DNA of 64,000 bases from a candidate division FCPU426 bacterium (GCA_963771075.1 CAVYSE010000020.1:64001-128000), one strand, 5' to 3'. Numbered from the stretch's first letter, positions 1,021-16,479 are shown. Notes: a model not told the origin generated them from the sequence alone. A program made the numbers and translations.

Positions 1021-1050
1021 TTGACATTTATTTGGGAAGGGGAGTAATGT
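1021..1050 (+). promoter_or_regulatory. Sigma70-type promoter for the sulfate operon leader
   Basis: Perfect TTGACA (1021-1026), 18-bp spacer, TAATGT (1045-1050); puts the start site at about 1057, just before motif copy 1. Confidence 0.7.
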
Positions 1051-1059
1051 TCCAACATC

Positions 1060-1130
1060 AAACGCGAGGCTTTAAGGTCCAACTTGCCCCGGCGTTTCCC
1101 GAAAGGGAAGAACAGGGTGCTAAAGCGGTT
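1060..1130 (+). ncRNA. Candidate riboswitch-like cis-regulatory RNA motif, copy 1
   Basis: GCGAGGCTTTA...CCAACTTGCCCCGGC-[TTTCCC GAAA GGGAAG]-AACAGGGTGCTAAAGCGGT; GCTTTA (1069-1074) can pair with TAAAGC (1121-1126). Confidence 0.75.
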
Positions 1131-1152
1131 AAGAGTTTAAGAGATTCTATCT

Positions 1153-1191
1153 AAACCCGATCCGCCCAAAGTGGACCGGGTTTTTTGTTTT
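1153..1191 (+). terminator. Intrinsic terminator after motif copy 1
   Basis: AACCCGATCCGC-CCAAA-GTGGACCGGGTT stem followed by TTTTGTTTT. Confidence 0.8.
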
Positions 1192-1266
1192 ACACCGAAA
1201 AACCCTTTAAAAACTAAGTTTTGCCCCACTGGTTCCTTGAACTGCGGGGAAGGCAAACATTGTTTG

Positions 1267-1351
1267 CCACCGGCGAGGCTTTATTAACCTACTTGCCCCG
1301 GCCGGCTTTCGTTGGATGTTTCAACGGAGGGAACAGGGACTAAAGCGGTGG
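1267..1351 (+). ncRNA. Candidate riboswitch-like cis-regulatory RNA motif, copy 2
   Basis: GCGAGGCTTTA...CCTACTTGCCCCGGC-[CTTTCGTTGGA/TTCAACGGAGG hairpin]-AACAGGGACTAAAGCGGT; GCTTTA (1278-1283)/TAAAGC (1341-1346), extended by CCACC/GGTGG. Confidence 0.75.
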
Positions 1352-1371
1352 AAGATTATTGGAACAACCAT

Positions 1372-1410
1372 AATCCCAAACCGCTGAAGCAAACGGTCTG
1401 GGATTTTTTT
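1372..1410 (+). terminator. Intrinsic terminator after motif copy 2
   Basis: AATCCCAAACCG...CGGTCTGGGATT stem running into a T7 tract. Confidence 0.8.
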
Positions 1411-1486
1411 ATTCCTAGAAGTTTCGATGTGGGGAGGATTGAGCAGTAAAAAGTTCAATTTTGTACGGCGGGATTTAACAGGCGGT

Positions 1487-1516
1487 GAAAAAGCCTTCAA
1501 CCGGCTTTTTCTTTCT
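1487..1516 (+). terminator. Additional terminator-like hairpin inside the leader
   Basis: GAAAAAGCC-TTCAACC-GGCTTTTTC followed by TTTCT; short GC core. Confidence 0.4.
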
Positions 1517-1551
1517 AGTGTGCGGGTCGCAGGCGACCCGTCCTAGCCCCT

Positions 1552-1668
1552 GGCTTTTACGGAACGTTACCAATCGCGGTTTTGGATGGTAACCCCCTGA
1601 AAGCACCAACTTGCCCCGGCCGGATTCGTTCCAGCTTTTGGAATGGACAAACAGGGAGCTAAAGCGGT
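1552..1668 (+). ncRNA. Candidate riboswitch-like cis-regulatory RNA motif, copy 3
   Basis: GGCTTTT-[inserted GTTACC/GGTAAC hairpin]-CCAACTTGCCCCGGC-[TTCGTTCCA/TGGAATGGA hairpin]-AACAGGGAGCTAAAGCGGT. Confidence 0.72.
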
Positions 1669-1690
1669 ATCGCGATGAAGACTTTTTCAT

Positions 1691-1721
1691 CCCGGCCCGC
1701 TTAAGCAGTGGGGCCGGGTTT
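1691..1721 (+). terminator. Intrinsic terminator after motif copy 3
   Basis: CCCGGCCCGCT-TAAGC-AGTGGGCCGGG stem then TTTT; contains CCGCTTAAGC, 9/10 complementary to motif GCTAAAGCGG. Confidence 0.7.
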
Positions 1722-1783
1722 ATGGCCCCGGGTGAACTGGACACCTTAAAAACCCATTAAATTTTTTAAAAAAGGGGCTAAAA

Positions 1784-3265
1784 ATGAAAAAGTTATTCGC
1801 TTATTGGTTGGTATTACTGGCGGGTTTATTCCTGACGACCGCCAGGGTTGGCGCGCAGGAACCATCTTCGGTTGGGAATTCGAAGCAGGATGCTCCTTCG
1901 ACGGATACCCCGGCGGCGGTCTCGGCTTCGGATATCGAAGCCCTGAACAACCGGCTCAACGCCCTGGAAAAGGGATCGGTCGTGTTGTCCACCGAGCATA
2001 ATTACCTCGATATTGGCACCCAAAAGGGCGATATCGTCTTTAAGATCGGCGCGGTAGTGCAGGGGGATTACCGGTCCTATTTCTACCCGGCTTCCAGTTA
2101 TGACGACAACCTGCCGATTGGGGCTGCGGGCGGCGGTGTCACGAATTTTGAGGAGGGGGCGACGGCGGCTTCGGTCAACAAATCCAGCAGTACCTTCCTG
2201 GACCGCAAGGTCCGGTTGGACCTGGTTGCCCTCTTTGACCAGACTGTGGGTTTGCGATACCAGGCCGAATTTGGCGCCACGGGTTACGCCATCCAGGACG
2301 CCTACGCCTTCGTAAAGGCGGACCCGGCTTTCCAATTCCAACTGGGAAAGTTCAAGGTGCCTATCGGCCTGGAACGCCTGCAAAACGACACGGATACTCT
2401 TTTTGCCGAGCGCGCCCTGCCCACCGACCTGGTCCCCAACCGTGACCTGGGCGGCCTTATCGGCGGGTCGGTTCATAATTACGCCCTCTACGCGGTGGCC
2501 TTGACCAACGGGACGCCCGACAATTACACGCCCAACAACGCCGACGACCAAAGCCTGACCGGCGGTAAGGAATTATCGGGAAGGGTTTTCCTGACGCCTT
2601 TCCAACCCACCGATTCCTTTCTCAAGAACCTTGGGGTTGGAATCTCGGGGTCCTGGGCCTGGAACGTGAGTTGGAACAGCAACGCCTATCCCAATTATTT
2701 CGTCACCTCCCTGGGCCAACAGCAATTCTTCGCCTATCGGACGGGCGTTTCCCCCCAGGGCGATTTTTACCACCTATCCCCCCAGGGCTACTTTTATAAC
2801 GGTCCCTTCGGATTGTTGGGAGAGTATGTCCAGTCCACCCAGAACGTCGGGACCTCCGCCAAGACTTCCGTGAGCCTCAATAACCAGGCCTTCCTGTTGC
2901 AGGCTTCATGGGTTATTGGCGGGAGGGCTTCCTACCAAGGCGCGGTCGCGGATAATGACTTGGATCTTTCCAAGGGCCGTTGGGGTGCTTTGGAGGTGGG
3001 CTTTCGGGTGCACCAATTGACCATCGACCCGAATGCCTTTAGCGCCACGGAAGCCTCGGATGTGGCGGCCACCAATTCGGCCCAGCAGGCCACGGCTTAC
3101 GGCGCGGGTTTGAACTGGATTTTCGACCCCCATTTCAAGCTGGTCTTCGATTGGGAGGAAACGGATTTCGTGGAAGGGACCCAGGTGACACCGAACATTA
3201 CCGGCACCGTTACGACCCTGCATCCCGAGGATGTTTTCACCATCCGGGCCCAGGCCAACATTTAA
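1784..3265 (+). CDS. OprO/OprP-family anion-selective porin (probably sulfate porin)
   Basis: Signal peptide, coiled-coil N-terminus, IQDAY...[13 protein letters not shown]...[17 protein letters not shown] and GRWGALEV motifs; first gene of the sulfate operon. Confidence 0.85.
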
Positions 3266-3282: not shown

Positions 3283-4311
3283 ATGAAAAAAATAAATCTT
3301 AGTCTCGGATTGCTGATGGGTCTTACCGCCGCTTCCTGGGTTTATGCCCAGGAGGCCCCAGTCGGGAAAACGGGGGGCGCGGTTAGGATTCTCAACGTGT
3401 CCTACGACCCTACGAGGGAATTTTACGCGGATTACGACAAGGTTTTCGCCGGCTACTGGAAAAAGAAAACGGGGCAGGATGTGACCGTGGACCTTTCCAA
3501 CGGGGGATCGGGCAAGCAGGCCCGGGCCATTATTGACGGCCTGGAAGCCGATGTGGCGACTTTGGGGCTTTCGGGCGATATCGACGCCATCGCGGCCAAA
3601 GCCCAGCTGCTTCCCGACGATTGGGAAAGCCGGTTGCCCGACCATAGCGCCCCCTATACCTCCACCATTGTTCTTTTGGTGCGCAAGGGGAACCCCAAGG
3701 CCATTAAGGATTGGGACGACCTGGTGAAACCCGGGGTGGCCGTGATCACTCCGAACCCGAAAACTTCCGGCGGCGGCCGATGGAACTTTCTGGCCGCCTG
3801 GGGATGGGCTCTTTCCAAATATGGAACGGAGGATAAAGCCAGGGAATTTGTAGGCAAGATCTACAAGAATGTCCCGGTGTTGGATTCAGGCGCGCGGGGT
3901 TCCACCACCACTTTTGCTGAAAGGGGCCTGGGAGACGTTTTGATCGCTTGGGAAAACGAGGCCTACCTGGCCGTCAACCAGTTGGGGAAGGACCAATTCG
4001 AGATTGTTTATCCATCCTCCAGCATTTTGGCCGAACCTTCAGTGGCCTGGGTGGACAAGAACGCCGCGAAACACGGTACGACCGAGGTGGCGGAGGCCTA
4101 CCTGAAATATCTCTACAACCCCGTGGGGCAGGACGTCATAGCCCGCAACTACTACCGGCCCCGGTCTAAAAAGGTCGAGGAGAAATACCGCAGCCAGTTT
4201 CCCGTGATCAAGCTCTTTACCGTCAACAAGGTGTTCGGTGGTTGGAAAAAAGCCCAGCCCGCCTATTTCAACGACGGCGGGGTCTTTGACCAAATCTACC
4301 AACCTAAATGA
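3283..4311 (+). CDS. sbp: Sulfate ABC transporter substrate-binding protein
   Basis: [43 protein letters not shown] motifs; AAGGAG RBS before ATG 3283. Confidence 0.95.
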
Positions 4312-5042: not shown

Positions 5043-5870
5043 ATGAATTCTAAATCTCCTGGTGTACTCCCGGGGTTCCGTCTCTCCATGGGCTACACCC
5101 TTTTTTACCTGGGCCTCATTGTTTTGATCCCCCTGGGGGCGATGGTATTAAAAACCACCCAGCTCACCTGGGTACAGTTCCTGGCGACGGTCCTGAGTCC
5201 CCGCGTACTGGCTTCTTTTCGGCTGACTTTCGGGTGTTCCATCATTGGGGCGGCCATCAATTCGGTTTTCGGGGCCGTCGTGGCCTGGGTCCTGGTCCGC
5301 TATACCTTTCCCGGGAAACGGCTTTTCGACGCCCTAGTGGACCTTCCTTTCGCCTTGCCCACGGCCGTGGCCGGCATCACCCTGACAGAACTCTATTCCC
5401 CCCAAGGTTGGATCGGCCGTTGGCTGATTCCCCTGGGTATCAAGGTGGCCTATACCCCCCTGGGTGTGGCGGTGGCCTTGACCTTTATAGGCCTTCCTTT
5501 CGTGGTCCGGACCCTTCAACCGGTCCTTGAGACGATGGATAAGGATATGGAGGAAGCGGCGGTCAGTTTAGGGGCGAACCGCTTTACGATCATTACCAAG
5601 GTGATTTTGCCCAGTCTCGTACCTGCCTGGATCACCGGGTTTTCCCTCGCATTCGCCAGGGCGGTGGGGGAGTACGGTTCGGTCGTGTTTATCTCGGGAA
5701 ACATGCCCATGAAGACCGAAATTACGCCCTTACTTATCATCTCAAAACTGGAACAATACGATTACGCCGGGGCCACGGCCCTGGGGGTGGTGATGCTGGT
5801 GATTTCATTTGCCATGCTGTTGACGGTGAATTGGCTTCAGGCCAAAACAGGCAAGCATCGAATCCATTAA
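5043..5870 (+). CDS. cysT: Sulfate ABC transporter permease CysT
   Basis: VLPGFRLSMG, DLPFALPTAVAG, EAA loop, ARAVGEYGSVVFISGN. Confidence 0.95.
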   Translation: MNSKSPGVLPGFRLSMGYTLFYLGLIVLIPLGAMVLKTTQLTWVQFLATVLSPRVLASFRLTFGCSIIGAAINSVFGAVVAWVLVRYTFPGKRLFDALVDLPFALPTAVAGITLTELYSPQGWIGRWLIPLGIKVAYTPLGVAVALTFIGLPFVVRTLQPVLETMDKDMEEAAVSLGANRFTIITKVILPSLVPAWITGFSLAFARAVGEYGSVVFISGNMPMKTEITPLLIISKLEQYDYAGATALGVVMLVISFAMLLTVNWLQAKTGKHRIH

Positions 5871-5887
5871 CATTAAAAGAGGAAGAT

Positions 5888-6802
5888 TTGACTCGAGAAA
5901 CGATTATTGTTATTTCTAAAGGAAATCGCGCCTCGCTGGACCCCAATCGGGGTATGACCGAGCCGGGATGGGTGAAGTTTACCCTGATCGGGATCTCCCT
6001 CCTGTTTTTAGGGCTTTTTTTGGTGATACCTTTGGCGGAAGTGTTTGTTTCGGCGCTCCAGAAGGGGATCGGCTTTTATTTCGACGCGATCCGGGACCCG
6101 GCCGCCCTTTCGGCCTTGAGGTTGACTCTCCTCACCGCGTTTTTCTCCGTTTTTTTCAATTTGATCTTCGGGTTGGCTTCAGCCTGGGCCATCACGCGGT
6201 TCGAATTTCCCGGCAAAAACCTGCTTATCACCTTGATCGACTTGCCTTTCACCGTCTCCCCGGTCGTGTCTGGCCTGATCTACGTGCTGCTCTTCGGTTT
6301 ACAAGGCTACCTTGGGCCCTGGGTCTTGTCCCACGGAATCCACATTATCTTCGCAGCGCCCGGTATCATCCTGGCCACGATTTTCGTGACCTTTCCCTTC
6401 GTGTCTAGGGAACTGATTCCCTTGATGCAGGAACTGGGCTCGGAAGAGGAACAAGCGGCTTTGGTTTTGGGTGCGAACGGATGGCAAATTTTTTGGCGGG
6501 TAACCTTGCCCAATATCCAGTGGGGCCTTCTCTATGGGGTCATTCTTTGTAACGCCAGGGCAATGGGGGAATTTGGGGCGGTATCGGTGGTTTCGGGCCA
6601 CATCCGGGGACTGACCAACACCCTGCCCTTGCATGTGGAAATTCTCTATAACGAATACAATTTTACGGCCGCTTTCGCAGTCGCTTCCTTATTGACCTTT
6701 TTGGCGCTGGTGACCCTGGTCGCCAAGGCGATCGTTGGCGCCCGCACCGTGCAAGAGAGGGAAATCCTTCCCATCTCCCATGAAAGCGAGCCTGCCCTAT
6801 GA
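5888..6802 (+). CDS. cysW: Sulfate ABC transporter permease CysW
   Basis: DLPFTVSPVVSGL, RELIPLMQ, NARAMGEFGAVSVVSGHIRG; start uncertain (TTG 5888 or ATG 5954). Confidence 0.93.
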   Translation: MTRETIIVISKGNRASLDPNRGMTEPGWVKFTLIGISLLFLGLFLVIPLAEVFVSALQKGIGFYFDAIRDPAALSALRLTLLTAFFSVFFNLIFGLASAWAITRFEFPGKNLLITLIDLPFTVSPVVSGLIYVLLFGLQGYLGPWVLSHGIHIIFAAPGIILATIFVTFPFVSRELIPLMQELGSEEEQAALVLGANGWQIFWRVTLPNIQWGLLYGVILCNARAMGEFGAVSVVSGHIRGLTNTLPLHVEILYNEYNFTAAFAVASLLTFLALVTLVAKAIVGARTVQEREILPISHESEPAL

Positions 6803-7842
6803 GTATCGAAGTCCGGGGGATCTCAAAAACCTTTAACGGTTTTCAAGCCGTGCGGGATGTCAGCCTGAAACTGGAAAGCGGGTCCCTGACCGCCCTGCTG
6901 GGCCCCTCGGGCTCGGGGAAAAGCACCCTGCTTCGCATGATCGCCGGGTTGGAAACCCCCAATTCGGGCGAGATCCACTTGACCGGCCGGGAAGCCACCT
7001 ATATTTCAGCTAAGGAACGCAATGTCGGGTTTGTTTTCCAGCATTACGCCCTTTTCAAGCACATGACCATCTTCGAAAACATCGCCTTCGGTTTAAGGGT
7101 CCGTAAATATGCGGAGAAGGACATCAAGGACAGGGTTTTCGAACTCCTCAGTCTTATCCAACTACAGGGCCTGGAAAACCGGTATCCATCCCAGCTTTCG
7201 GGAGGCCAGCGCCAAAGGGTGGCGGTCGCCCGCGCCCTTGCGCCTCGGCCGGAGGTTTTGCTATTGGACGAGCCCTTTGGGGCTTTGGACGCCAAGGTAC
7301 GGGAAGAATTAAGGGAGTGGATTTTAAAGCTCCACGAGGAAACCAACGTGACGACCCTTTTCGTGACTCACGACCAAAATGAGGCGCTGGAAGTGGCGGG
7401 CCGAATTCTGATTATGAACCAGGGAAGGATTGAGCAAGATGGCACTCCGCTTGAAATCTTCGACCAGCCAGCCACCCATTTCATCGCCCAGTTCGTGGGG
7501 GAGACCAACTATATTGACACGAAAATTAGCGAGAAGGGTTTGGCGGTGTGGGGGCCTTTCCGATTCATGGTTACCCCCTTCTTTAAATTGGGGCAGAAAG
7601 TGCGTATTTATTTTCGCCCCAATGACGTTTACATGACCGCTCAATTTGAGACCCTGCAGGTGAAGGCCAAGGTGCTTTCTATCCGTTTCAAGGGAACGAT
7701 GATGGAATACAAACTCGACGTGGGGGAAGAAAAGCAAATTATCGCTCAGGTACCCAAGGGCGTGGCCTTGGCCAGCGGGTTTTCCGAGGGGGCGGAGGTA
7801 TTCGCCGCCATTACCGCCTTCCACGTTTTTCCGCTGGATTAG
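6799..7842 (+). CDS. cysA: Sulfate ABC transporter ATP-binding protein
   Basis: GPSGSGKS, LSGGQRQR, LLLDEPFGALDAKVR, C-terminal TOBE-like region. Confidence 0.95.
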   Translation: MSIEVRGISKTFNGFQAVRDVSLKLESGSLTALLGPSGSGKSTLLRMIAGLETPNSGEIHLTGREATYISAKERNVGFVFQHYALFKHMTIFENIAFGLRVRKYAEKDIKDRVFELLSLIQLQGLENRYPSQLSGGQRQRVAVARALAPRPEVLLLDEPFGALDAKVREELREWILKLHEETNVTTLFVTHDQNEALEVAGRILIMNQGRIEQDGTPLEIFDQPATHFIAQFVGETNYIDTKISEKGLAVWGPFRFMVTPFFKLGQKVRIYFRPNDVYMTAQFETLQVKAKVLSIRFKGTMMEYKLDVGEEKQIIAQVPKGVALASGFSEGAEVFAAITAFHVFPLD

Positions 7843-7975: not shown

Positions 7976-8893
7976 TTGTTGAGCCAGCAGGAACCAAAAT
8001 CCTTTTCGCACCTGAAACAACTTGAAGCGGAGAGCCTGTTCATCATCCGGGAAGTCGTTTCGGAATTCAAAAAACCCGTCATGCTCTATTCGGTGGGGAA
8101 AGATTCTTCCGTCATGCTTCGCCTGGCCCAAAAGGCCTTCCACCCGGGCAAGATTCCCTTTCCCCTGATGCACGTGGACACAAGCTACAAGTTCCCCGAG
8201 ATGTACCAGTTCCGGGACAAATTGATCGCCGACCTGGGCGCCAAGCTTCTGGTGGAACGCAACGAGGATGCTATCTCGGCCGGTTCCAGTCCCTTCAAAT
8301 ACGGGGTGGATAAATGCTGCGCGCTGTTGAAGACCCAGGGACTGTTGGACGCCCTCACCAAGCACGGTTTTGACGCTGCCTTCGGCGGGGCGAGGCGGGA
8401 AGAGGAAAAATCCCGGGCGAAGGAAAGGGTTTATTCATTCCGGGATTCCTTCGGCCAGTGGGACCCCAAGAACCAGCGGCCCGAACTTTGGGACCTCTAT
8501 AACTCCAAGATCAACGAGGGGGAATCCATTAGGGTTTTCCCCCTTTCCAATTGGACTGAACTGGATATTTGGCTCTATATCGAGATGGAAAAGATTCCCG
8601 TGGTACCCATTTACTTTACCCACGAACGAAAGATCATCAAACGCAAGCAACTCCTGATTCCTTGGGCCCCCCATATCCCCCTTTTGCCGGGAGACGAAGT
8701 GAAACAGATGAGGGTTAGGTTCCGGTCCCTGGGATGTATGTCCTGCACGGGTGCCATCGAGTCCGAAGCCTCCAGCTTGCGGGATATCATCGAGGACCTG
8801 GTTTTGACCCGAAAGAGCGAGCGGGAAAATCGCATTATCGATCACGGCTCGGACAGTTCCATGGAGCAAAAGAAAAAAGAAGGATACTTCTAA
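7976..8893 (+). CDS. cysD: Sulfate adenylyltransferase subunit 2
   Basis: [55 protein letters not shown]. Confidence 0.97.
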
Positions 8894-8972
8894 AAGCAGT
8901 CGGCAGCCGACATCTCTAAAGACGTGAATGTGAAAAATTGTTTGTTAACGGTTAACTAAATTGGGAGTCGTA

Positions 8973-10242
8973 ATGACTATCGACGAGAAATCGGAAATCA
9001 GCTACGCGAACATGGGCCTCCTGCGGTTTTCCACCGCGGGTTCGGTGGATGACGGCAAGTCCACCTTGATCGGGCGGCTGCTTTTTGACTCCAAAAGCGT
9101 CTTTGAGGACCAATTGGAGGCCATTCGCAAGACCACCTCCAAAAAGGGAGGGGAAGAGATCGACCTGGCTCTCATCACGGACGGCCTTGCCGCCGAACGG
9201 GAGCAGGGTATCACGATCGACGTGGCCTACCGCTATTTCGCGACTCCCAAGCGCAAGTTTATCATCGCCGACACTCCCGGCCACGAACAATACACCCGCA
9301 ACATGGTCACGGGAGCCTCCACCTCCAACCTGGCGATCATCCTGCTGGATGCCCGTAACGGGGTTATGACCCAATCGAGGCGCCACGGTTTTATCGCAAA
9401 CCTTTTGGGCATCCCCCATCTGGTGGTCGCCATCAATAAGATGGACCTAGTGGATTATTCCCAGGAGGTATTCAACCGCATCCGCGCCGAGTTCGGGGCC
9501 TTCACGAAGGAAATTGGCGCGCCCGAGCCTATGATTATTCCCATTTCCGCGCTCAAGGGCGACAATGTGGTGGAAAAGAGCGGCGCCATGCCTTGGTACC
9601 AAGGGCCCGCGCTTTTGCATTATTTGGAAACCGTGGAGATTAACCGCGACCTGAACCAGGAGGATTTCCGCTTCGCGGTGCAGACCGTGATCCGGCCCAA
9701 CCTGGATTACCGGGGTTTCGCTGGCCGGATCGGCTCGGGCCGAATTCGCCGGGGGGATCGGGTGGTCGTTCTGCCCTCGGGGATCGAGACATCCGTCAGG
9801 GCTATCGACACTTTTGAGGGGGAAATCGAGGAAGCTTTCGCGCCCCTTTGCGTGACCCTGCGCTTGAAAGACGAGGTGGATTTGTCCCGAGGGGACATGC
9901 TCGTCCGCCCCGACAACCGGCCCCAAAGCGGGCCCCTCTTTACCGCCGATCTCTGCTGGATGGTGCAAGAGCCCTTGAACCTCAGGAAAAAGTATTCCCT
10001 CAAGCACACCACCCAGACTGTGAAAGCCATGGTGGTGGACATCGAGTATCGGACCAACATCAACACATTGGATAAGGAGAAAAGTGGATGAACTTGGGAT
10101 GAACGATATCGCCCGGGTCAAGGTCCAATCGCTCAAACCCCTCTATTTTGACCCTTACAAGAAGAACCGCAACACGGGCAATTTCATTCTGATCGATGAG
10201 CTGTCTAATAACACGGTGGCGGCAGGCATGATCGTCGGGTGA
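8973..10242 (+). CDS. cysN: Sulfate adenylyltransferase subunit 1 (GTPase), frameshifted near 10080
   Basis: [33 protein letters not shown]; after one extra A in the GAGAAAAGTG run the protein continues ...LGMNDIARV...[19 protein letters not shown] to 10242; no CysC domain. Confidence 0.9.
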
Positions 10243-15526: not shown

Positions 15527-15585
15527 GACCGGGTTTTGGCGGGGGTAACAAAGGATTTGGAAATTGAGAGGCCCGCTTGCCCCAA

Positions 15586-16479
15586 ATGAATAAGCCTTCG
15601 AGATTATTAAAGGAAGCCATGAAGACCAAAATCGCCCATAAAAAAACACCCTCCAAAAAGAAACCCAAGTCCAAAAAAGCCACAACGGCCTGGGATCGGG
15701 TCCAACTGGCCCGCCACGCCCAAAGACCTTTCATGATGGACTATATTCCACGTATTTTTCACGAGTTCGTGGAAGTGCATGGAGACCGTGCTTTTGGCGA
15801 CGACCCGGCCATGGTCACGGGCTTCGCCCTGCTGGAGGGCCTGCCGGTAGCGGTAGTGGGCCAGCAAAAGGGGCACGATACCAAGGAAAATATCCGTAGA
15901 AATTTCGGCATGTCCCAGCCGGAGGGCTACCGTAAGGCCTTGCGGGTGATGAAATTGGCCGAGAAATTCCATAAACCCATCATCACCTTTATCGACACGG
16001 CTGGGGCCTATCCTGGATTGGGCGGGGAAGAAAGGGGACAGGCGGAAGCCATCGCCCGAAACCTCCTGGAAATGGCGAAACTGAAAACCCCTATTATCTC
16101 GATCATTCTGGGCGAGGGCGGAAGCGGTGGAGCCATTGGAATCGGCGTGGCCAACAAAGTACTCATGATGGAAAACGCCTGGTATTCGGTGATCTCGCCC
16201 GAGGGTTGCGCGGCCATCCTTTGGAATGACCGGGAAAAGATCCAGCAAGCTTCAGAGGTTTTAAGGCTTTCGGCGCCGGACCTCATGAGATTTAAGGTCA
16301 TCGATGAGATCATCCCAGAACCCGTGGGCGGCGCCCAGTTAGATCACGAGAAAACATCTGCCACACTGAAAACCGCCATCTTGAAACATTTAAGACCACT
16401 CTTGAAATTGAGCCCCAAAGCTCTCGAGGAACAACGCTACAAAAAGTTTCGTGCAATGGGTCAAATTAAAGAAAAGTAA
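15586..16479 (+). CDS. accA: Acetyl-CoA carboxylase carboxyltransferase alpha subunit
   Basis: HGDRAFGDD, PEGYRKALR, DTAGAYPG, GEGGSGGA, SVISPEGCAAILW; start uncertain. Confidence 0.95.
   Translation: MNKPSRLLKEAMKTKIAHKKTPSKKKPKSKKATTAWDRVQLARHAQRPFMMDYIPRIFHEFVEVHGDRAFGDDPAMVTGFALLEGLPVAVVGQQKGHDTKENIRRNFGMSQPEGYRKALRVMKLAEKFHKPIITFIDTAGAYPGLGGEERGQAEAIARNLLEMAKLKTPIISIILGEGGSGGAIGIGVANKVLMMENAWYSVISPEGCAAILWNDREKIQQASEVLRLSAPDLMRFKVIDEIIPEPVGGAQLDHEKTSATLKTAILKHLRPLLKLSPKALEEQRYKKFRAMGQIKEK

What the first reader, a model, noticed from the sequence alone, without database searches (positions are those of the whole stretch)
1057..1721. Triple-tandem unassigned riboswitch-like RNA controlling the sulfate assimilation operon
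Seen: the ~730-nt leader between a TTGACA/TAATGT promoter and the porin gene holds three copies of one motif. Block A ACTTGCCCCGGC is identical at 1082-1093, 1291-1302 and 1609-1620. Block B AACAGGG(TG/A/AG)CTAAAGCGGT is at 1111-1129, 1332-1349 and 1650-1668. An upstream GGCTTT occurs in all three (GCGAGGCTTTA in copies 1 and 2). Between A and B each copy has a hairpin of different sequence but preserved pairing (copy 1 has a GAAA tetraloop), a hallmark of structured RNA. GCTTT(A) pairs with (T)AAAGC to close the domain, with flanking pairs that differ between copies (AAC/GTT vs CCACC/GGTGG). Each copy is followed by its own hairpin plus U-tract. Known: tandem riboswitches with separate terminators sharpen the response and triples are rare; sulfur operons are usually controlled by SAM riboswitches, T-boxes or CysB/CymR. 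By eye this motif lacks the SAM-I/IV core (AUC..GAU, GCAACC), the SAM-II GAUUU pseudoknot and the T-box UGGN bulge. Inference: an undescribed or highly variant sulfur-sensing riboswitch/attenuator (possible ligands Cys, SAM, APS/PAPS, sulfate, or an RNA-binding protein).
Basis: partly seen in the sequence, partly recalled or inferred. Interest (0 to 1): 0.93.

Follow-up and report, generated by a model that had tools for sequence, protein, structure and literature searches.

The report
Triple SAM-V-like riboswitch variant array
The leader of a sulfate-uptake operon carries three copies of a conserved RNA that matches no catalogued family but keeps the fold and binding letters of known S-adenosylmethionine (SAM) sensors, so it is likely a new variant SAM riboswitch, stacked three deep and predicted to shut the operon off when sulfur is plentiful.

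Summary
The three copies are real. The motif occurs 5 times in this genome, before only two operons (sulfate uptake/activation; metY), and 264 distinct copies were parsed from relatives, Elusimicrobia, Acidobacteria and metagenomes, nearly always before sulfur genes. No Rfam model hits it. But it is not unassigned: it maps onto the solved SAM-V pseudoknot (4-bp P1 with strong covariation, UU third strand, UUG/C-UAAA pocket, P3 hairpin), keeping the SAM-contacting letters U9, U20, U47 and A50. It differs by A7C and A18C changes, a longer bulged P2, a longer third strand, and by acting through terminators. In most copies the aptamer's 3' GCGG can pair with CCGC in the terminator's 5' arm, so ligand would turn transcription OFF; copy 3 probably also blocks the ribosome site. 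About half of leaders are tandem and about a tenth triple. SAM as ligand is inferred (about 0.8), not measured. New variant of a known kind.

The parts
1021..1050 (+). Likely sigma-70-type promoter (-35 TTGACA 1021-1026, -10 TAATGT 1045-1050, 18-nt spacer)
   Evidence: positions; not called by the consensus scan; similar pattern precedes 102 of 169 first copies and 0 of 68 internal copies
1062..1129 (+). Aptamer 1: P1 ACGC 1062-1065 / GCGU 1092-1095; third strand 1066-1074; P2a CC 1079-1080; C18 1083; UUG 1084-1086; P3 hairpin with GAAA loop; U47-A50 1121-1124; tail GCGG 1125-1128
   Evidence: model R1 82.7 bits (built partly from this copy)
1153..1191 (+). Terminator 1 with U-tract; CCGC at 1162-1165 in its 5' arm can pair with the aptamer tail (antiterminator)
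1271..1349 (+). Aptamer 2: P1 CGGC 1271-1274 / GCCG 1301-1304; third strand 1275-1283; U47-A50 1341-1344; tail GCGG 1345-1348
   Evidence: R1 65.6 bits (built partly from this copy)
1372..1410 (+). Terminator 2 with U7 tract; antiterminator site CCGC 1381-1384
1466..1477 (+). Aptamer 3, 5' part: P1 CGGC and third strand GGGAUUUA (A at position 7, as in SAM-V)
   Evidence: ortholog L042 without insert
1478..1605 (+). Self-folding multi-hairpin insert in the loop between third strand and P2a; holds a terminator-like hairpin at 1487-1511
   Evidence: 29 of 244 copies have a linker of 40 nt or more, 25 with P1 intact and 4 apparently mis-assigned
1606..1668 (+). Aptamer 3, 3' part: P2a CC 1606-1607, C18 1610, UUG 1611-1613, P1' GCCG 1619-1622, P3, U47-A50 1660-1663, tail GCGG 1664-1667
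   Evidence: R1 43.8 bits on model positions 24-91 (this copy was not in the training alignment)
1691..1729 (+). Hairpin 3 (1691-1718, CCGC at 1697-1700), weak tail UUUAU (1719-1723) and GGCCCC (1724-1729), which can pair with either the hairpin's 3' arm (GGGGCC 1710-1715) or the ribosome site
1774..1786 (+). Ribosome-binding site GGGGC and porin start codon
1784..3265 (+). Porin_O_P family porin (PF07396), first gene
3286..4311 (+). Sulfate ABC transporter substrate-binding protein (Sbp)
   Evidence: PRK10752 and TIGR00971 above cut-off
5043..7842 (+). cysT, cysW, cysA sulfate ABC transporter genes
7976..10242 (+). cysD (7976-8893) and cysN (8961-10091, continuing in another frame to 10242)

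Best explanation
The leader holds three copies of a conserved pseudoknot RNA that is likely a SAM-sensing riboswitch of the general SAM-II/SAM-V class, each copy predicted to switch expression off on its own. Shown: the copies, the P1 covariation, conservation of the third strand and pocket letters, a terminator and a complementary CCGC site behind most copies, and the tie to sulfur genes. Inferred mechanism: without SAM the aptamer's 3' tail (GCGG) pairs with CCGC in the 5' arm of the terminator, so RNA polymerase reads through. SAM binds in the U9.A48-U20 / U10.A49-U19 triplex, anchored by U47 and A50; this locks P2a (CC/GG), withdraws the tail and lets the terminator form. Copies 1 and 2 would terminate near 1186-1191 and 1410. 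Copy 3 has a weak U-tract and would act mainly on translation: when its hairpin forms, GGCCCC (1724-1729) is free to cover the ribosome site. Three gates in series would multiply read-through and give a steeper, tighter response (pseudo-cooperative, as in PMC9481103), so porin-sbp-cysTWA-cysDN is made only under real sulfur starvation.
For: Topology and pocket match SAM-V Table S4 (PMC6061858). The database patterns used only the 3' half, yet a P1 complement followed by G(N)GRNNUU lies upstream in 253 of 259 copies (shuffled 2-9, swapped partners 111-130). P1 pairs 240, 241, 240, 238 of 244 against shuffled means 213, 241, 129, 121; a fifth pair is at chance, 117 against 107. On a 48-sequence alignment: 87.9% of cells paired against 78.2% shuffled (0/500) and 31.6-54.2% for slid partners; 102 double-change cells against 38.6. 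Terminator in 227 of 254 (shuffled 20-24); CCGC in 232 of 254 (shuffled 74-91), in the 5' arm in 192 of 209. Ligand-free folds of copies 1 and 3 are the antiterminated state. First genes of 170 leaders: porin 36, 1-Cys peroxiredoxin 23, metY 20, exbB 11, DsrE-like 6+1, TauB/SsuB-like 5, SsuA 4, sbp 3. Divergent members with A7/A18 precede metH and metY, one (L263) with the Shine-Dalgarno directly 3' as in SAM-V. metY is the core SAM-II target and metK is not listed among its targets (PMC4239095). The bhmT SAM-V RNA, which binds SAM at 0.5 uM, reads G at position 8 by my alignment of Table S1, like 11 of 244 copies here.
Against: No binding or termination was measured. No SAM Rfam model scores these copies even at E<=10. 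Two positions next to the pocket differ in most copies (C7 in 220 of 244, C18 in 252 of 264). UUG and CUAAA were required by my search patterns, so their invariance is partly by construction, and P2a and most P2 pairs do not vary, so they give no covariation evidence. Copy 2's ligand-free equilibrium fold already has the terminator, by 1.3 kcal/mol. The base next to GCGG and the base next to CCGC do not covary above shuffle (124 of 232, shuffled mean 110, max 130). For the window's copy 3 the ribosome site is still mostly paired in the modelled ON state (unpaired probability 0.06-0.21). The genome also has a canonical SAM-I elsewhere, and the regulon leans to sulfate uptake more than to methionine. 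Sequences are kin, not independent.
Confidence: 0.8

Rival explanations
1. Same fold and OFF logic, but the C7/C18 changes and longer P2 have retuned the pocket to another sulfur-pathway ligand (SAH, decarboxylated SAM, MTA, APS/PAPS), making it a new ligand class derived from SAM-II/V.
For: C7 and C18 dominate. Sulfate uptake, SsuA/TauB-like, peroxiredoxin and ExbBD genes outnumber met genes. The genome keeps a separate SAM-I. Precedent: SAM-I variants that sense spermidine (PMC10853860, passages).
Against: The letters that read the sulfonium (U9, U20), adenine (U47) and aminoacyl group (A50) in SAM-V are all kept; uridine carbonyls facing sulfur suit a cation, not anionic APS/PAPS (inference). 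A7 and C7 copies sit in one leader (window copies 1-2 against 3), and C7/C18 copies precede metY just as an A7/A18 copy does. OFF logic fits an end product.
Confidence: 0.12
2. The motif is a binding site for a sulfur-responsive antiterminator protein, or a T-box-like or leader-peptide attenuator.
For: Terminator/antiterminator layout and multiple copies also fit protein-mediated antitermination (established knowledge, recalled).
Against: No T-box or leader family hit. No spacer ORF with a Shine-Dalgarno and 2 or more Cys among 103 distinct spacers. The match to a ligand pocket over three separated strands would be unexplained.
Confidence: 0.05
3. Only copies 1 and 2 work; copy 3 is disabled by its 132-nt insert, or the insert's hairpin (1487-1511) is a constitutive attenuator, so the array is functionally a doublet.
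For: The insert holds a terminator-like hairpin; copy 3's own U-tract is weak.
Against: The insert folds on itself and P1 stays intact in 25 of 29 long-linker copies; all core letters of copy 3 are kept; the anti-ribosome-site element covaries with the site in porin leaders and opening the site costs over 1 kcal/mol more in the OFF state in 24 of 34 leaders, the reverse in 3. This rival is compatible with SAM as ligand.
Confidence: 0.15

Closest known systems
SAM-V riboswitch (Rfam RF01826; metY RNA, PDB 6FZ0; PMC6061858)
   Same: H-type pseudoknot in the same order: 4-bp P1, third strand with U8-U9-U10, P2a 5' strand, U19-U20-G21, P1 3' strand, P3 hairpin, A-rich linker, C46-U47-A48-A49-A50, P2a 3' strand; metY among targets; OFF logic.
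   Different: A7 and A18 mostly C; P2 spans 8 descending bases with bulges instead of 6 bp; third strand 8-9 nt instead of 7; G+C-rich; mostly terminator/antiterminator output instead of a Shine-Dalgarno in P2a; 40-133-nt inserts tolerated; not scored by RF01826.
SAM-II riboswitch (SAM_alpha RF00521; SAM-II long loops RF01726)
   Same: Same pocket (SAM-II and SAM-V cores superimpose at 0.373 A, PMC6061858); terminator platforms and tandem doublets are known (44 doublets, PMC9481103); targets metY, metX, metW (PMC4239095).
   Different: SAM-II has P1 of 6 bp or more, P2 of 4 bp and no P3 (PMC6061858 Fig. S5 legend); this RNA has 4 bp, a longer P2 and a P3. Not scored by either model. No SAM-II triple is mentioned in the passages of PMC9481103 that I read.
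Pseudo-cooperative and bi-mechanism tandem riboswitches (PMC9481103)
   Same: Several complete switches in one leader, the last one probably acting on translation, as in SAM-II/SAM-V tandems.
   Different: One aptamer type used three times; tandems make up 54 of 112 leaders with enough upstream sequence, 11 of them triples, whereas that survey lists one SAM-I triple.

Membership tests
SAM-V (RF01826) | Covariance-model score at or above the gathering cut-off (41 bits) | tested here: not met
   No match at any of the 5 copies at E<=10; none in 9 + 6 related loci
SAM-V (RF01826) | Pseudoknot with a 4-bp P1 | tested here: met
   Four pairs at 98-99% with double changes, fifth pair at chance
SAM-V (RF01826) | P3 hairpin after P1, then A-rich linker | tested here: met
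   261 of 264 fold below -1 kcal/mol, mean -8.9 against -3.1 shuffled; 5 of 5 P3 pairs with double changes
SAM-V (RF01826) | Ligand-contacting and triplex letters U9, U10, U19, U20, G21, C46, U47, A48, A49, A50 | tested here: met
   All present in the three window copies; third-strand UU found independently of the database pattern in 253 of 259; the 3' letters were required by the pattern
SAM-V (RF01826) | A7 (triple with G21-C46) and A18 (pairs with A50) | tested here: not met
   C7 in copies 1-2, A7 in copy 3, C18 in all three; family-wide A7 21 of 244, A18 12 of 264
SAM-V (RF01826) | 6-bp P2, 7-nt third strand, Shine-Dalgarno directly 3' of the aptamer | tested here: not met
   Longer bulged P2, 8-9-nt third strand, terminators in 227 of 254; Shine-Dalgarno type seen only in a few relatives (L263, L138)
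SAM-II (RF00521, RF01726) | Covariance-model score at or above cut-off (36 and 44 bits) | tested here: not met
   None of 17 and none of 3 weak genome matches lies at a copy (each scored only 150 first-look candidates); direct scan of 800-2000 also blank
SAM-II (RF00521, RF01726) | P1 of 6 bp or more, 4-bp P2, no P3 | tested here: not met
   against PMC6061858 Fig. S5 legend
General SAM-II class (SAM-II and SAM-V as types; PMC5473149) | Triplex pseudoknot pocket upstream of methionine/sulfur genes with OFF logic | tested here: met
   (sequence-level only)
General SAM-II class (SAM-II and SAM-V as types; PMC5473149) | Selective binding of SAM over SAH | not testable with these tools
   Needs in-line probing or ITC
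SAM-I (RF00162) | Covariance-model match | tested here: not met
   Only match in the genome is a different site, G000:C5:67866-67997
T-box or Cys leader-peptide attenuator | Rfam T-box match, or Cys-rich leader ORF with a ribosome site | tested here: not met

The most novel reading that the evidence does not exclude
A SAM-II/V-derived aptamer whose C7/C18 pocket and extended P2 sense a different sulfur-pathway metabolite than SAM, used routinely in doublets and triplets as the master switch of a whole sulfur-starvation regulon in uncultured phyla; this would be a new riboswitch ligand class.
Probability: 0.12. Interest if true: 0.88.

Novelty: new variant of a known kind. Interest (0 to 1): 0.6.

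Why it matters
It adds a third architecture to the SAM-II/SAM-V pocket that all current Rfam models miss, so SAM regulation in these uncultured lineages is invisible to standard annotation. It joins SAM-V's fold to terminator output, and relatives show intermediates (A7/A18, Shine-Dalgarno type), which makes the evolution of expression platforms traceable. Because the family occurs naturally as singles, doublets and triples, often with a translational last gate, it is a ready test system for how stacking sharpens a response. It also marks porins, a 1-Cys peroxiredoxin, ExbBD-TonB, DUF3034, DUF2292 and small unknown genes as likely sulfur-starvation genes. If C7/C18 change the ligand, it would be a new class.

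Tried and rejected
Rfam scans of the leader, the whole window and 15 related loci gave only chance-level matches at the motif; family-specific genome searches for RF00521, RF01826, RF01726 missed the copies. Plain MFE folding of single copies is not unusual against shuffles (z 0.05 to -1.3 for aptamers), as expected for a pseudoknot. GGCTTT at 1552 as copy 3's 5' strand was rejected. A Cys leader peptide was looked for and not found; a 38-codon frame at 1171-1287 has 4 Cys but starts inside terminator 1 with no ribosome site. No copy before metK-ahcY or metH in this genome. 7 of 38 loci (L031, L036, L046, L051, L056, L064, L065) lack the flanking CCAAC and third strand and were dropped as chance. 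No RNA holder listed for the region. Poiata et al. 2009 is not held. Paper searches for a prior description found none; the library lacks most subscription papers, and I did not see the supplementary motif catalogues of the large RNA screens, where the motif could be listed.

Full report
OBSERVATION. Blocks A and B are at the stated coordinates. The genome holds exactly five A+B copies: three here and two on contig C14; a covariance model built later finds the same five and no more at E<=1 among the 150 candidates it scored. The window's leader precedes a Porin_O_P porin, sbp, cysT, cysW, cysA, cysD and cysN. The C14 pair precedes metY (TIGR01326 above cut-off), followed by frames that I read as cysK/metX/metW-like from their sequence and from an orthologous locus. 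The exact pattern matches 17 of 61 related genomes with no hit for the reversed control; a looser one matches 29 of 99 genomes of the phylum, 25 of 30 in the own family, with one control hit. A scan of species genomes gave 38 loci, of which I dropped 7 as chance; the named records among the other 31 include 10 labelled Elusimicrobia/Elusimicrobiota and 2 Acidobacteria. A metagenome scan stopped at its limit with 147 stretches. The model found it in 8 of 151 genomes sampled from the phylum of G099 and 4 of 101 relatives of G100. So the motif is real, widespread in one family and patchy elsewhere.

NOT IN RFAM. The leader gives only six chance-level matches at E<=10, the window only tmRNA at gathering level. 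SAM_alpha, SAM_V and SAM-II long loops do not score the copies, nor divergent relatives.

STRUCTURE. I parsed 264 distinct aptamers from 250 loci plus the window. Upstream of block A lies a strand G(A)GG-C-U-UU-A, preceded by four bases that pair with the four bases after CCCCG: CGGC/GCCG 92, ACGC/GCGU 80, CGGU/ACCG 29 and rarer types. The four pairs hold in 240, 241, 240 and 238 of 244 copies (shuffled means 213, 241, 129, 121); a fifth is at chance (117 against 107). The database patterns did not include this 5' strand; a P1 complement followed by G(N)GRNNUU was found in 253 of 259 copies with enough upstream sequence, against 2-9 for shuffled upstream DNA and 111-130 with swapped partners. 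On an alignment of 48 copies chosen by hand from the first 68 loci, the pseudoknotted structure has 87.9% paired cells (shuffled 78.2%, 0/500; slid partners 31.6-54.2%) and 102 cells with double changes (shuffled 38.6); the count of pairs with a double change (9) is not above shuffle (94/500), P2a has no double change and P2 only one. Single divergent copies add A-U for G-C at the end of P2 (L266) and A-U in its middle (L273, L274).

COMPARISON WITH SAM-V. I read parts 2 and 3 of 5 of PMC6061858 and its whole supplement. SAM-V runs P1 (4 bp), third strand G5-G11, turn, A18-U19-U20-G21 to C24, P1', P3 hairpin, A40-A42, G43 to C46-U47-A48-A49-A50, with a short P2a. SAM's adenine pairs with U47, its aminoacyl end with A50, and its sulfonium faces O4 of U9 and U20. 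The motif has the same elements in the same order; in copy 1 U8-U10 are 1071-1073, U19-G21 are 1084-1086 and U47-A50 are 1121-1124. Differences: position 7 is C in 220, A in 21, U in 3 of 244; position 8 U in 233, G in 11; position 18 C in 252, A in 12 of 264; P2 is longer and bulged; the third strand has 8-9 nt. That C can replace A in these contacts is my inference (both offer an exocyclic amine). Divergent members bridge to the canonical form: L268 and L270 carry GAUUUG and A18, and they and L269 precede metH; L263 has A7, A18 and a Shine-Dalgarno directly after the aptamer, before metY. PMC5473149 (3 passages) treats SAM-II and SAM-V as types of one class. PMC4239095 (12 passages) gives metY as the core SAM-II target, with metA, metX, metC, hom and metW, and does not list metK; this fits the lack of a copy before metK here. 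PMC2864571 (2 passages) and PMC7583470 (11 passages) add only context.

COPY 3. Its 5' strand is CGGC-GGGAUUUA at 1466-1477, separated from position 18 by 132 nt instead of about 8. Of 244 copies 29 have linkers of 40 nt or more; 25 keep P1 and fold the insert on itself, 4 look mis-assigned by my parser. An orthologous third copy (L042) has the same flank and no insert.

EXPRESSION PLATFORM. A hairpin plus U-tract follows 227 of 254 copies with 110 nt downstream (shuffled 20-24). CCGC, complementary to the aptamer tail GCGG, lies downstream in 232 of 254 (shuffled 74-91) and overlaps the hairpin's 5' arm in 192 of 209; the adjacent base pair does not covary above shuffle. The GG of that tail is also the 3' strand of P2a, so the two pairings exclude each other: ligand-stabilised P2a frees the terminator (inferred OFF switch). 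In folding, the unconstrained state of copies 1 and 3 is antiterminated (-42.7 against -36.9; -103.3 against -98.1 kcal/mol for the nested part of the OFF state, without P1 or ligand); copy 2 favours the terminator by 1.3 kcal/mol, which tells against a purely thermodynamic reading for it. Behind copy 3 the U-tract is weak, and GGCCCC can pair with the hairpin's 3' arm or with the ribosome site GGGGC; in porin leaders this element changes with the site (GGACCCC with GGGGU, GGCCCC with GGGGC). Opening the site costs over 1 kcal/mol more in the OFF state in 24 of 34 leaders and less in 3; 13.6 against 2.1 kcal/mol for the near-identical ortholog L007. For the window itself the site is still mostly paired in the ON model, so this part is tentative.

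REGULON AND STACKING. Of 170 distinct leaders, 152 had a readable first frame: porin 36, peroxiredoxin 23, metY 20, exbB 11, unknown small protein 8, DsrE-like 6, DUF3034 5, TauB/SsuB-like ATPase 5, SsuA 4, sbp 3, DUF2292 3, unknown 3, two pairs, 21 singletons (one or a few representatives per cluster were scanned). In G003 seven copies lie in 19 kb that hold exbBD-tonB, sbp, a metY-like gene, porin and cysTWA. That 1-Cys peroxiredoxins and TonB systems are induced by sulfate starvation in Pseudomonas is recalled, not from a call. With copies up to 330 nt apart counted together, 90 leaders are single, 65 double, 15 triple; among 112 with 400 nt of upstream sequence, 58, 43 and 11; 10 of 36 porin leaders are triples. 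These are kin and not independent. PMC9481103 (12 passages) reports 44 SAM-II doublets, 149 SAM-II/SAM-V tandems and one SAM-I triple, and describes stacked switches as pseudo-cooperative.

RIVALS. A changed ligand has precedent (spermidine-sensing SAM-I variants, PMC10853860, 11 passages), and the genome keeps a canonical SAM-I before a threonine-synthase-like gene. Against it: all direct contacts are kept, A7 and C7 copies share one leader, and both forms precede metY. Protein or peptide attenuation has no support.

PRIOR DESCRIPTION. Nine searches of the paper library found no description (listings and abstract starts only, unless named above). Subscription papers, Poiata et al. 2009 and supplementary motif catalogues were not seen. 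An earlier AI note of this scan on another genome (e1-9976553) reached the same reading; it is not independent evidence, and my reading was recorded before I saw it.

VERDICT. A real, well-supported cis-regulatory RNA family; not a member of RF00521, RF01726 or RF01826 by their defining tests, but working like the general SAM-II/V class. SAM-sensing OFF switch about 0.8, other ligand about 0.12. New variant of a known kind; interest 0.6.

Noticed in passing
window:8961-10242: cysN breaks frame near 10080-10091 and continues in another frame to 10242. The SAM-I-controlled thrC-like gene (G000:C5, about 68200-69527) and metH (G000:C11:244174-247618) are also split, which suggests assembly indels rather than pseudogenes.
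   Followed up: partly
window:83-355 (-) and window:4455-4733 (+): Two HPr-family phosphocarrier genes flank or interrupt the sulfate operon, one divergent upstream and one between sbp and cysT; an HPr-like frame also lies after sbp in G003 (L278, about 15550-15900). An HPr inside a sulfate ABC operon is unexplained.
   Followed up: no
G000:C5:67866-67997: Canonical SAM-I riboswitch (72.4 bits) with terminator, upstream of a threonine-synthase-like gene.
   Followed up: partly
window:4740-5030: Intergenic stretch with short repeated words (CACCAAG / CTTGGTG); similar words lie upstream of a copy in L080. Possibly a small repetitive element.
   Followed up: no
L034, L047, L271, L272, L273: In Acidobacteria-labelled records and their relatives the motif precedes a conserved protein of about 95-115 aa with no Pfam or NCBIfam match; a candidate sulfur-starvation protein of unknown function.
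   Followed up: partly
L019, L059, L100: A 115-145-aa protein with no Pfam match is the first gene of 8 leaders, ahead of a DsrE-like gene and exbBD-tonB.
   Followed up: partly
L268, L269, L270, L263, L138: Minimal or Shine-Dalgarno-type versions of the aptamer, some lacking P3, before metH, metY or a porin-like gene; they look like intermediates to canonical SAM-II/V and are also missed by Rfam.
   Followed up: partly
window:55978-56319: tmRNA, 170.9 bits.
   Followed up: no
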